This document shows, piece after piece, positions 57,304 to 57,446 of a stretch of DNA of 64,000 bases. Under the pieces are notes generated by a model. The model had not been told where the DNA came from and made no database searches. It saw only the letters and a list, made by a program, of their open reading frames with translations. The stretch's first letter is position 1, and every line of letters starts with the position of its first letter. The translations under genes and the position numbers were made by a program. The stretch comes from Candidatus Parcubacteria bacterium (GTDB lineage: Bacteria > Patescibacteriota > Minisyncoccia > Phycocordibacterales > CAIJYI01). The DNA lies in contig JAPLYL010000002.1 of assembly GCA_026395595.1 (NCBI GenBank), forward strand, positions 44,874 through 108,873. Direction: 5' to 3'.

Positions 57304-57446
57304 AAAATTTTCAATTTGCAATTTTTAATTTTCAATCAATTTTCAATGTTTCAATGTCAAAATTTTCAAAAATGACAGTATTGTTTAAGTTTGAAAATTG
57401 TGATTTGAAAATTCATTAAAAATTAAAAATTGGAAATTGGAAATTT
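57304..57446. repeat. ~143-bp palindromic MITE-like repeat, copy A (built from TTGAAAATT/AATTTTCAA units, with ~30-bp terminal inverted repeats)
   Basis: About 88% identical to 61395-61535, with a partial third copy at the window end. It is inserted between rnpA and yidD. Confidence 0.6.

What the first reader, a model, noticed from the sequence alone, without database searches (positions are those of the whole stretch)
57304..57446. Family of ~143-bp palindromic MITE-like repeats built from TTGAAAATT units, at least 3 copies, all promoter-proximal
57304-57446 and 61395-61535 are collinear at about 88% identity, and a third copy begins at 63975 (window end). Each has about 30-bp terminal inverted repeats (AATTTTCAATTTGCAATTTTTAATTTTCAAT ... 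CATTAAAAATTAAAAATTGGAAATTGGAAATT) and can fold into one long hairpin. Copy A sits inside the otherwise tight rpmH-rnpA-yidD-yidC operon. Copies B and C sit directly upstream of the starts of minus-strand surface-protein genes. Shorter relatives of the motif occur at 3031-3110 and 13562-13600.
Basis: seen in the sequence. Interest (0 to 1): 0.6.

Follow-up and report, generated by a model that had tools for sequence, protein, structure and literature searches.

The report
Gene-less copies of hairpin selfish DNA
The two ~145-bp AT-rich palindromes are real: they are stripped-down, gene-less copies of a small hairpin-shaped selfish element, widespread in the tiny "candidate phyla radiation" bacteria, whose full form carries the same small gene found in the intervening sequences of ribosomal RNA genes.

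Summary
The repeat is real. Copies A (57300-57451) and B (61393-61540) are 89% identical, each with 45-47-nt inverted arms. Copy C is only a 22-nt stub at the window end.

The arms are degenerate AATTTTC heptamers. Related sequences occur in more than 230 loci, mostly from Patescibacteria/CPR genomes and metagenomes.

Syntenic relatives have empty sites at both A and B, so these are gains rather than conserved regulatory DNA.

The classical MITE reading fails on three counts. There are no target-site duplications, no transposase parent was found, and there is no promoter specificity.

The parent is a ~0.47-kb element with the same arms. Its inner CAATG supplies the start codon of a 119-127-aa four-helix-bundle gene (Pfam 23S_rRNA_IVP), and the right arm follows the stop codon. 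Window copies align with both ends of this element, so they are internal-deletion derivatives.

One ORF-less relative sits in the helix-9 loop of a CPR 23S rRNA gene, a true intervening sequence. Coxiella's IVS has the same plan: stem, heptamer repeats before the ATG, S23p ORF.

The arms show no compensatory covariation and no strand bias. RNase III cleavage of the stem is inferred, not shown.

Verdict: a new variant of a known kind, moderately interesting.

The parts
57300..57451 (+). Copy A: ORF-less hairpin element between the rnpA stop (57290) and the yidD start (57473). The heptamer-to-heptamer core is 57306-57445.
   Evidence: Direct repeat D6 and inverted repeat I1. Fold -44.3 kcal/mol, z = -7.65. 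nhmmer 109.5 bits on the + strand. Flanking genes by Pfam. The site is empty in L124/L125, where rnpA and yidD overlap by 4 nt.
57300..57346 (+). Copy A left arm: C-type heptamers AATTTTC AATTTGC AATTTTT AATTTTC AATC AATTTTC
57346..57348 (+). Relic ATG, the end of the conserved CAATG. In full-length relatives this is the start codon of the four-helix-bundle ORF. Here it opens only a 9-codon ORF.
   Evidence: Read from the sequence. Alignment with L144, L236 and L218. ATG = ORF start in relatives.
57405..57451 (+). Copy A right arm: G-type heptamers ...TTGAAAATTCATTAAAAATTAAAAATTGGAAATTGGAAATT
   Evidence: Aligns with the arm that follows the stop codon of the 4HB ORF in relatives.
61393..61540 (+). 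Copy B: ORF-less hairpin element between the stop of 61547-62860(-) and the start of 60127-61380(-). Same + polarity as A, so antisense to its host genes. Core 61397-61536.
   Evidence: (I3). nhmmer 120.4 bits. The site is empty in L123 (3-nt spacer), L124 (13 nt) and L125 (overlap).
61393..61437 (+). Copy B left arm
   Evidence: I3
61437..61439 (+). Relic ATG of copy B (ATG TTT CAA TGT TGA)
   Evidence: Sequence; alignment
61496..61540 (+). Copy B right arm
   Evidence: I3
63979..64000 (+). Possible copy C, cut by the window end. Only AATTTTCAATCAATTCTCA is visible, which corresponds to the inner part of a left arm. It may be a full, short or half element.
   Evidence: Not detected by the nhmmer profile at E<1e-3.

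Best explanation
Copies A and B, and probably C, are non-autonomous, ORF-less members of a family of small hairpin-shaped selfish elements that is widespread in Patescibacteria/CPR.

The full-length element (~0.47 kb) has three parts:
- A left arm of 3-6 degenerate AATTTTC heptamers ending in CAATG, whose ATG is the start codon.
- A 119-127-aa four-helix-bundle protein gene of the 23S_rRNA_IVP / S23p / TIGR02436 family.
- A right arm of the complementary GAAAATT heptamers, starting directly after the stop codon.

The window copies keep both arms, the ATG and the first few 'codons', and have lost the body of the ORF. This is the architecture of the classical S23p-carrying intervening sequences (IVS) of 23S rRNA. 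One ORF-less member of this same family is in fact an IVS in the helix-9 loop of a CPR 23S rRNA gene.

Shown here:
- Family membership.
- The deletion-derivative relationship.
- Gain and loss at orthologous sites.
- Insertion in either orientation into very short spacers inside co-directional gene strings.
- Absence of target-site duplications.

Inferred:
- The elements are co-transcribed with the host operon.
- The ~45-bp A/U stem is cut by RNase III, as in rRNA IVSs, which would split the transcript without harming the flanking genes.
- The G-free, A/U-rich heptamer tract in front of the ATG serves Shine-Dalgarno-independent translation of the ORF in an organism that hardly uses SD sequences.

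The mobility mechanism is unknown. The 4HB protein acting in trans on the heptamer arms is the leading guess.
For: 1. Real family. A and B are 89% identical with 45-47-nt arms.

2. Parent element. In every case where CAATG starts a 4HB ORF, the stop codon is followed at once by the G-type arm. tblastn found 17 4HB genes in the loci. All 15 CPR genes sit between C-type heptamers upstream and G-type heptamers downstream. The protein matches PF05635 at 47-69 bits (cut-off 33.8) and TIGR02436 at 72.6 bits (cut-off 24). Its closest solved relative is 2RLD, with 5 chains.

3. Deletion derivative. A, B and L087 align collinearly with both ends of L144, L236 and L218. The left ~63 nt includes the ATG; the right ~70-85 nt runs to the GAAAATT end. 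ORF-less copies keep the N-terminal codons (ATG ACT AAA TTT TCA AAC) at the nucleotide level.

4. Link to IVS. L023 carries a 123-nt AATTTTC-type palindrome in place of 9 nt at LSU model positions ~160-169. The Coxiella IVS has a 28-bp terminal stem, an S23p ORF in the loop, tandem heptameric repeats of variable copy number before the ATG, and RNase III excision (PMC4990558).

5. Gain and loss. Sites A and B are empty in syntenic relatives. The relative genome that is 77% identical in RnpA has 87-88% identical copies at other, non-orthologous sites (L087).

6. Context of 91 full-length elements: 53 between co-directional genes, 10 convergent, 7 divergent. Polarity relative to the genes is 31:22. 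They fill the spacer.

7. ORF-carrying copies are co-oriented with the upstream host gene in 12 of 14 cases, as expected if the ORF relies on read-through transcription.

8. The window genome has an SD-like motif before only 3 of 48 genes.
Against: - No 4HB gene lies in this 64-kb window, so a trans-acting source in this genome is not shown.
- Mobility itself is inferred from presence/absence among relatives that are only 68-87% identical in RnpA. No precise filled/empty junction was obtained.
- At site A, two relatives carry different heptamer-type palindromes. This means either repeated insertion at one spot or rapid turnover; neither was resolved.
- The arms show no compensatory covariation. 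Own-arm complementarity is 0.801, against 0.801 for arms of other elements; 983 of 2000 permutations reach the observed value.
- There is no sense-strand folding advantage (28:24, p = 0.89). Nothing therefore shows selection for an RNA stem, and RNase III processing is only an analogy.
- About a fifth of family members are single arms without a partner (23 of 115). Some of these are read in frame inside genes. The hairpin model does not explain them.
- The direction of the relationship (ORF loss rather than ORF capture) rests on retained N-terminal codons, not on a phylogeny.
Confidence: 0.7

Rival explanations
1. Classical MITE: a deletion derivative of a DDE-transposase insertion sequence, mobilised in trans through its terminal inverted repeats, inserting with a short (TA) target-site duplication.
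For: Long terminal inverted repeats, small size, multiple copies and empty sites in relatives. Each arm is conserved to a consensus rather than co-varying with its partner, as expected for protein-binding ends.
Against: There is no target-site duplication: 2-nt direct flank repeats occur in 12 of 75 elements against 8.2 in controls, and 3-nt repeats in 1 against 2.75. The longer relatives with the same arms carry a 4HB gene, not a transposase. The genes between neighbouring arms in L048 are rpsB, tsf, prfB and tsaC. There were no hits in 2.9 million viral contigs.
Confidence: 0.07
2. Host regulatory module: the arms are portable expression signals kept by the host. These would be outward-facing sigma-70-like promoters (TTGAAA-17-GAAAAT) and/or G-free A/U-rich leaders for SD-independent translation.
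For: TTGAAA-17-GAAAAT (9/12) points outward from the left arm of both A and B. The genome uses leaderless promoters and almost no SD. Single arms end in an ATG that starts real genes such as scpB, and lie in front of tsf; a similar heptamer tract forms the conserved rpsT leader. Heptamer repeats just before start codons are described in other SD-poor groups (PMC4679880).
Against: Sites A and B are empty in relatives, where the same gene pairs abut or overlap, so no signal is needed there. Promoter-like sites are not enriched (13 against 17.2 expected). GAAAAT is far from this genome's TATAAT. Distances from element end to the next start codon range from 2 to 128 nt. In palindromic copies the leader+ATG modules point into the loop, not at the flanking genes. 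Orientation is random (31:22).
Confidence: 0.12
3. Structure-selected RNA or DNA hairpin: an intercistronic terminator, attenuator or mRNA-stabilising stem, or a cruciform, kept for its structure. Its sequence similarity among copies would be secondary.
For: The hairpins are very stable. At the rnpA-yidD spacer three related genomes each have a long AT-rich palindrome of different sequence. The window's 9915-10008 palindrome sits where L042 has an AATTTTC element.
Against: There is no compensatory covariation between arms and no sense-strand advantage. There is no GC-rich stem plus U-tract, whereas ordinary terminators of that type exist in the window (for example 58546-58590 and 16968-17027). 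Sites are empty in relatives. Sequence is conserved at 80-88% between non-orthologous sites of different genomes, which structure alone does not require.
Confidence: 0.08
4. No homology: independent local expansions of an AATTTTC heptanucleotide microsatellite, a common long simple-sequence repeat, that happen to sit in inverted pairs.
For: Plain tandem (AATTTTC)n / (AATTTTT)n arrays occur in Bacteroidales, cyanobacteria and others. A 7-nt unit indel separates orthologous tracts. Heptamers are reported as the commonest long SSR class (Mrazek 2007, as cited in PMC4679880).
Against: Copies share the same order of variant units, the same 3-nt-short unit (AATC), the CAATG, the asymmetric inner regions and the GC-containing centre across genomes. 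Slippage cannot produce these repeatedly.
Confidence: 0.03

Closest known systems
S23p-encoding intervening sequences (IVS) of 23S rRNA (Coxiella burnetii, Leptospira, Xanthomonas, Brucella; PMC4990558)
   Same: Terminal inverted repeats form a long stem. A PF05635 four-helix-bundle ORF sits in the loop, sense to the host transcript. Tandem heptameric repeats of variable number lie directly before the ORF's ATG. The elements are regarded as selfish, with sporadic distribution and no known mobility mechanism. One ORF-less member of the present family is an insertion in the helix-9 loop of a CPR 23S rRNA gene.
   Different: The window copies, and all 15 ORF-carrying CPR copies examined, lie between protein-coding or tRNA genes rather than in rRNA. 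There are many copies per genome. Most copies have lost the ORF. The whole stem is built from heptamers (AATTTTC, against GACAGAT upstream only in Coxiella). RNase III excision was not tested.
Bacterial MITEs such as Neisseria Correia/NEMIS elements, ERIC/IRU and RUP (own knowledge)
   Same: Non-coding palindromic repeats of 100-180 bp with long inverted ends, dispersed in intergenic spacers and co-transcribed with neighbouring genes. Correia elements are known RNase III substrates and can carry promoters.
   Different: No target-site duplication. The parent encodes no transposase.
Rickettsia palindromic elements, RPE (own knowledge; Ogata et al. 2000)
   Same: AT-rich palindromic elements of similar size in reduced genomes of host-dependent bacteria. 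They are found both between genes and in frame inside protein-coding genes, with no duplications and no known transposase. Here, single arms are read in frame in pth, a MetRS-like gene and a membrane protein.
   Different: A different lineage. Sequence similarity was not tested. RPEs have no known ORF-carrying parent, and here only single arms, not whole palindromes, were seen inside genes.
Heptanucleotide long simple-sequence repeats before start codons (TAACTGA repeats of Beggiatoaceae, cyanobacteria and Bacteroidetes; PMC4679880)
   Same: 7-nt units lie immediately upstream of start codons of SD-less genes, with a patchy distribution across SD-poor phyla and 7-nt copy-number changes.
   Different: Those are plain direct repeats without an inverted partner or an associated ORF family. 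The CPR arms are a fixed, degenerate series of units propagated as a block.
REP/BIME elements with RAYT transposases (PMC3733652 abstract; own knowledge)
   Same: Extragenic palindromes without target duplications, thought to be mobilised in trans by a host-resident gene.
   Different: REPs are 20-40 bp with a GTAG/CGTC head and are GC-rich. Neither a head motif nor a RAYT gene was seen here.

Membership tests
MITE (transposase-dependent miniature inverted-repeat element) | Terminal inverted repeats | tested here: met
   47-nt arms at 87% (A) and 45-nt arms at 91% (B) complementarity
MITE (transposase-dependent miniature inverted-repeat element) | Target-site duplication flanking each copy | tested here: not met
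   75 elements: direct flank repeats of 1-4 nt are no more frequent than in 200 permutations (2 nt: 12 against mean 8.2, max 16; 3 nt: 1 against 2.75). A palindromic AATT duplication hidden in the ends cannot be excluded.
MITE (transposase-dependent miniature inverted-repeat element) | Autonomous parent with the same ends that encodes a transposase | tested here: not met
   The longer relatives with the same ends encode a PF05635 four-helix-bundle protein. Genes between neighbouring arms in L048 are housekeeping genes. The test is limited to about 240 fetched loci.
MITE (transposase-dependent miniature inverted-repeat element) | Presence/absence polymorphism at orthologous sites | tested here: met
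   Site A is empty in L124/L125. Site B is empty in L123, L124 and L125.
S23p-type intervening sequence (IVS) element | Complementary termini forming a long stem | tested here: met
   Compare the 28-bp stem in Coxiella.
S23p-type intervening sequence (IVS) element | PF05635 / TIGR02436 ORF in the loop | tested here: not met
   Window copies have only 4-9-codon relics after the ATG. They align with both ends of ORF-carrying members. The family as a whole meets this feature.
S23p-type intervening sequence (IVS) element | Tandem heptameric repeats directly upstream of the ORF's start codon | tested here: met
   3-6 AATTTnC units run up to the CAATG start. Coxiella has GACAGAT x2-3.
S23p-type intervening sequence (IVS) element | Location in a 23S rRNA helix (9, 25 or 45) | tested here: not met
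   A and B lie between protein genes. No rRNA was found in 15 loci with ORF-carrying copies. One ORF-less family member does sit in the LSU helix-9 loop.
S23p-type intervening sequence (IVS) element | Excision from the host transcript by RNase III | not testable with these tools
Rickettsia palindromic elements (RPE) | In-frame insertion inside protein-coding genes as well as between genes | tested here: inconclusive
   Single arms are read in frame in pth (several contigs), a MetRS-like gene and a membrane protein. The Pth region has the usual length, so replacement rather than simple insertion may be involved. No whole palindrome was seen in a gene.
Rickettsia palindromic elements (RPE) | Sequence relationship to RPE families | not tested
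   No RPE sequences were compared.
REP/BIME with RAYT | 20-40-bp palindrome with a conserved GTAG/CGTC head; RAYT gene flanked by REPs | tested here: not met
   Elements are 90-180 bp, AT-rich, with AATTTTC ends. No such head is present. RAYT was not searched genome-wide.
Intrinsic terminator | Short GC-rich stem followed by a U-tract | tested here: not met
   The terminator scan lists other sites but not A or B. Stems are A/T-only for ~45 bp, with no adjacent T-run.
TIGR-Tas guide array | 36-nt periodic units with box C/D-like motifs next to a Nop-domain Tas gene | tested here: not met
   The period is 7 nt. Copies are dispersed and isolated between housekeeping genes. Definition from PMC12045711.
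Rfam RNA families | Match to a curated covariance model | tested here: not met
   The gathering threshold gave only 3 tRNAs in the window. The permissive search of 57200-57560 gave only chance-level hits, E >= 1.8.

The most novel reading that the evidence does not exclude
The four-helix-bundle S23p/Avd-like protein is the trans-acting mobility or maintenance factor of a distinct class of duplication-free hairpin elements, and it recognises heptamer arrays. This class would unify three things so far treated separately: the enigmatic intervening sequences of 23S rRNA, the dispersed intergenic palindromes of CPR bacteria, and the heptanucleotide repeats found before start codons in Bacteroidota, cyanobacteria and Beggiatoaceae. 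Two Bacteroidales 4HB genes also sit between inverted GAAAATT/AATTTTC arrays.
Probability: 0.2. Interest if true: 0.85.

Novelty: new variant of a known kind. Interest (0 to 1): 0.62.

Why it matters
Where rRNA intervening sequences come from, how they move and what their conserved S23p ORF does have been open questions since the early 1990s (PMC4990558). This family offers hundreds of related copies to work with: ORF-carrying, ORF-less, single-arm, in rRNA and in operons. That makes those questions approachable by comparative genomics and by simple biochemistry, such as testing 4HB binding to heptamer arrays and RNase III cleavage.

It also shows that the minimal genomes of CPR bacteria, usually described as poor in mobile DNA, tolerate a prolific selfish element wedged between essential, otherwise overlapping genes such as rnpA and yidD.

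For annotation, these palindromes break assemblies, create spurious start codons and short ORFs, and can be mistaken for promoters or terminators.

No paper describing this family was found in the searchable library. That library is incomplete, so prior description cannot be excluded.

Tried and rejected
- **Fetching the source contig to complete copy C.** Exact-protein look-ups for RnpA, for its database twin P0001 and for the 437-aa protein all failed. An exact 26-mer from the flank of C found nothing in metagenome contigs.
- **Phage vector for spread.** Two arm patterns gave 0 hits in viral contigs.
- **Known RNA family.** None was found.
- **Candidate autonomous IS in L048.** Two inverted arms lie 2.8 kb apart, but the genes between them are rpsB, tsf, prfB and tsaC, so these are separate single-arm and full elements.
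- **TA or other target duplications, and an insertion-site motif.** None was found; flanks are only mildly A/T-rich. One script call returned nothing and was repeated.
- **RNA-level selection.** Sense and antisense folding energies do not differ.
- **Compensatory covariation between arms.** None was found.
- **Promoter hypothesis.** There is one weak outward TTGAAA-17-GAAAAT per left arm and no enrichment. Spacing to the next ATG is not constrained.
- **Strict 'leader' orientation of single arms.** Among the genome hits, 21 had the C-strand before an ATG and 12 the G-strand, which is not decisive.
- **TIGR-Tas arrays.** Considered because they occur in CPR bacteria, and rejected on period and context.
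- **Integron attC, DNA-uptake sequences, Sm/Hfq-site resemblance and Rho rut sites.** Considered from memory only and not pursued, because no defining feature could be matched.
- **Literature.** Searches for the sequence itself, for CPR palindromic repeats or MITEs, and for PF05635/TIGR02436/S23p found nothing on this family.
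Full report
**1. The observation**

Positions 57297-57445 and 61388-61536 are collinear direct repeats at 89% identity. A 174-column alignment that includes flanks gives 91%.

Each copy is an imperfect palindrome.
- A has arms 57300-57346 and 57405-57451, 47 nt, 87% complementary.
- B has arms 61393-61437 and 61496-61540, 45 nt, 91% complementary. In both, 58 nt lie between the arms.

Either strand folds into one long hairpin, at -38 to -45 kcal/mol with z = -6.1 to -8.9 against dinucleotide shuffles. 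The 31-nt arm pattern occurs four times in the window, against 0.00 expected.

The arms are a fixed series of degenerate heptamers: AATTTTC AATTTrC AATTTTT AATTTTC AAT-C AATTTnC AATG. Heptamer-periodic tracts number 11 in the window, against 0-2 in block shuffles. None are found for periods 8-11.

The 'third copy' is 22 nt at the window end and matches the inner, not the outer, part of a left arm. It could not be completed.

The two 'shorter relatives' are not copies.
- 3031-3110 is a different heptamer-type hairpin.
- 13562-13600 is the 5' leader of rpsT. It is almost 100% conserved with a related genome over ~130 nt and differs by exactly one 7-nt unit.

**2. Context**

Pfam confirms the gene order: dnaA | rpmH, rnpA, [A], yidD, yidC | T4SS-pilin-like, unknown, SLT_3 + pilin-like, [B], unknown 437 aa, Ig-like 350 aa, [C].

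- A starts about 10-15 nt after the rnpA stop and ends 22 nt before the yidD start.
- B fills the spacer between a stop (61547) and the next start (61380) on the minus strand.
- A and B have the same polarity on the + strand, although their host genes run in opposite directions.

The genome is almost free of Shine-Dalgarno motifs (3 of 48 genes). It has clear leaderless promoters, TTGACA-17-TATAAT followed by 6 nt and the ATG. The gene below C has such a promoter of its own, about 100 nt from C. Ordinary GC-stem/T-run terminators exist elsewhere, for example 58546-58590.

**3. The family outside the window**

The hits fall into two classes.
- Plain tandem heptamers in Bacteroidales, cyanobacteria and others.
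- The specific element in genomes whose record titles name Nomura-, Uhr-, Sungii-, Falkow-, Yanofsky-, Campbell-, Staskawicz-, Roizman-, Shapiro-, Curtiss-, Blackburn-, Levyi- and Peribacteria, 'Paceibacterota', 'Patescibacteria group' and 'Saccharibacteria'.

Some short contigs labelled with other phyla also carry it and may be mis-binned. I did not verify the labels.

A second scan of metagenome contigs used only the inner motif TTTTCAATCAATTTNCAATG. It gave at least 120 loci. In nearly all of them, 2-4 further AATTTnC units precede the motif although they were not asked for.

Of 115 evaluable hits, 63 fold with at least 25 of the 44 left-arm bases paired to downstream sequence, and 23 are single arms. 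Viral contigs gave nothing, and Rfam gave nothing.

**4. Gains, not conserved signals**

RnpA homologues led to syntenic loci.
- In L124/L125 (68% RnpA identity), rnpA and yidD overlap by 4 nt.
- The genes flanking site B are 13 nt apart in L124 and overlap in L125.
- In L123 (77% identity) the genes at site B are 3 nt apart.

Both sites are therefore empty in relatives. The L123 genome, Nomurabacteria Ike-200m-9, nevertheless has copies 87-88% identical to the window's at other places (L087, L119). At this divergence that is more similarity than neutral DNA should retain.

At site A, L120 (87%) and L123 carry long AT-rich heptamer-type palindromes of different sequence. Conversely, L042 has an AATTTTC element exactly where the window has a palindrome of a second family, built from CTTTTTn units. 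Certain spacers are reused. I could not tell whether this happens by repeated insertion or by replacement.

**5. Tests of the MITE reading**

*Context.* Of 91 full-length elements found with an nhmmer profile, 53 lie between co-directional genes, 10 between convergent and 7 between divergent genes. Polarity relative to the genes is 31:22. They typically fill the spacer to within 0-13 nt of the stop.

*Target-site duplications.* Direct flank repeats of 1-4 nt are no more frequent than in permutations. The TA-duplication prediction therefore fails. A palindromic AATT duplication hidden in the ends cannot be excluded.

*Transposase.* No transposase lies beside the elements. A candidate 2.8-kb unit in L048 turned out to hold rpsB, tsf, prfB and tsaC, with separate elements in three spacers within 5 kb.

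*Arm covariation.* An element's left arm is no more complementary to its own right arm (0.801) than to the right arms of other elements (0.801); 983 of 2000 permutations reach the observed value.

*Strand asymmetry.* Folding of the sense strand is not favoured over the antisense strand (28:24, Wilcoxon p = 0.89).

Each arm is thus conserved to a consensus. Nothing indicates selection for an RNA stem as such.

**6. The parent element**

In the metagenome sample, the ATG of the conserved CAATG is the start codon of real genes, most often one family with the motifs YDLEERT...SIGANYMEANGA...ETKHWL. In every such case the stop codon is followed at once by the complementary G-type arm.

tblastn found 17 such genes in the fetched loci and none in the window. 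All 15 CPR genes sit between C-type heptamers running up to the ATG and G-type heptamers after the stop. Two Bacteroidales genes also sit between inverted GAAAATT/AATTTTC arrays.

The protein matches:
- Pfam PF05635 23S_rRNA_IVP, 47-69 bits against a cut-off of 33.8.
- NCBIfam TIGR02436 'four helix bundle protein', 72.6 bits against a cut-off of 24.
- PDB 2RLD as its closest solved relative, an entry with five chains.

A, B and L087 align collinearly with both ends of three ~470-nt ORF-carrying elements. The left ~63 nt includes the ATG. The right ~70-85 nt runs from the last codons to the GAAAATT end.

ORF-less copies keep the first codons (ATG ACT AAA TTT TCA AAC) at the nucleotide level. 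That points to ORF loss rather than ORF capture. A possible deletion route is between the similar TTTTCAAA strings at the 5' end and at the LIFQK codons near the 3' end; this is inference.

ORF-carrying copies are co-oriented with the upstream host gene in 12 of 14 cases. This fits dependence on read-through transcription. None of their 15 loci contains rRNA.

**7. The link to rRNA intervening sequences**

In L023, a Patescibacteria genome, a 123-nt AATTTTC-type palindrome replaces 9 nt at the tip of the helix at LSU model positions ~160-169. This is the helix-9 region, one of the three classical IVS sites by my own knowledge.

The Coxiella IVS is described as follows (PMC4990558):
- A 428-nt selfish element.
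- A 28-bp terminal stem.
- An S23p ORF in the loop.
- Two or three tandem heptameric repeats directly before the ATG, whose number varies among strains.
- Excision by RNase III.
- Origin and mobility unknown.

The CPR elements have the same plan. The window copies are therefore best filed as ORF-less, extra-ribosomal members of an IVS-like element family. They are not full members of the classical IVS class, because they lack the ORF and are not in rRNA.

**8. How it most likely works**

*Shown:* family membership, the derivative relationship, gain and loss at orthologous sites, orientation-independent residence in operon spacers, and absence of duplications.

*Inferred by analogy:*
- The element is transcribed with its host operon.
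- Its ~45-bp A/U stem is an RNase III substrate, so the transcript is cut into two usable parts. This would explain why insertions between essential, formerly overlapping genes are tolerated.
- The G-free heptamer tract before the ATG supports SD-independent translation of the ORF in an SD-poor organism. Similar heptamer repeats before start codons are reported in Beggiatoaceae, cyanobacteria and Bacteroidetes (PMC4679880).

*Unknown:* how copies spread. The 4HB protein acting on the heptamer arms is the obvious candidate, an old suggestion for IVS ORFs cited in PMC4990558.

*Not explained:*
- Single arms, including those read in frame in pth, a MetRS-like gene and a membrane protein.
- Reuse of the same spacers by different palindromes.
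- A 32-nt GC mini-palindrome nested in several elements.

**9. Novelty**

Small palindromic repeats and IVSs are known kinds. New, as far as the searchable literature shows, are three points:
- This CPR-wide family itself.
- Its location mainly outside rRNA.
- The explicit parent-derivative link between dispersed 'MITE-like' palindromes and an S23p-type hairpin element.

I rate it a new variant of a known kind, with interest 0.62.

Noticed in passing
window-wide; e.g. 6059, 12085, 14036, 24943 (+), 21458-23806 and 41958-42431 (-), and the gene starting at ~63871 (-): The genome hardly uses Shine-Dalgarno motifs (3 of 48 genes). Many first genes have a TTGACA-17-TATAAT promoter whose -10 box ends exactly 6 nt before the ATG, which implies leaderless mRNAs.
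   Followed up: partly
window 9915-10008, 21381-21458, 49987-50074; single arms at 48556-48590 and 54744-54778: A second family of heptamer-built palindromes (CTTTTTn / nAAAAAG units). One single arm lies just before the ATG at 48609. Another lies at the edge of the dnaA-dnaN spacer that holds DnaA-box-like TTATCCAC/TTATCCCC motifs near 54600-54640.
   Followed up: partly
window 13520-13660 (minus-strand gene 13293-13559, rpsT-like): The promoter (TTGCAT-17-TACTAT) and an ~80-nt leader containing AAAAATT-type heptamers are almost 100% identical to L042. The flanking coding DNA is only 71-80% identical. The only length difference is one 7-nt unit.
   Followed up: partly
L113, L141, L162, L188, L198, L199, L203 (pth); L169, L234 (MetRS-like); L167 (membrane protein): Single C-type arms are read in frame inside protein genes, always as ...NFQF(P/S)IFNFQSI(F/S)N... 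In Pth the region has the normal length, so the arm seems to have replaced native codons.
   Followed up: partly
L048 4530-4565; also L153, L222, L240: A 32-nt GC-rich mini-palindrome (GTCTCCCTGCGGGAGATCTCCAGAAGGGAGAC and variants) is nested inside AATTTTC elements from different metagenomes. It may be a second, even smaller, repeat that targets them.
   Followed up: no
L121 14745-14880 (orthologue of the spacer holding copy C): An unrelated ~130-nt element with ATACCGTCTC...GAGACGGTAT inverted ends, next to a normal bidirectional terminator. The same stretch is masked as N in the NCBI copy L123.
   Followed up: no
L002 and L118 (Bacteroidales / Parabacteroides): Four-helix-bundle (PF05635-like) genes in Bacteroidales also sit between inverted GAAAATT and AATTTTC heptamer arrays. 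Many plain (AATTTTC)n arrays in Bacteroidales lie 4-11 nt before start codons.
   Followed up: partly
L023 1764-7523: This CPR 23S rRNA gene carries the 123-nt AATTTTC-type insertion, a further 173-nt insertion near model position 283, and two group I introns.
   Followed up: partly
window 23762-23838 and 25734-25810: A 77-nt direct repeat, 99% identical, that contains a TATAAT-type promoter and the first codons of a minus-strand gene.
   Followed up: no
window 28931-41787: Large minus-strand genes, including one of 2862 aa, with extensive internal and mutual 200-300-nt repeats at 64-86% identity. They are probably repetitive surface proteins.
   Followed up: no
window 3031-3110: A separate 80-nt hairpin with heptamer-like arms (AATTTCC AATATCA AATTTCA), 14 nt upstream of the start of 2655-3017(-). 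It resembles the palindrome that L120 carries at the rnpA-yidD site (AATTTCT AATTCCT AATATCT).
   Followed up: no
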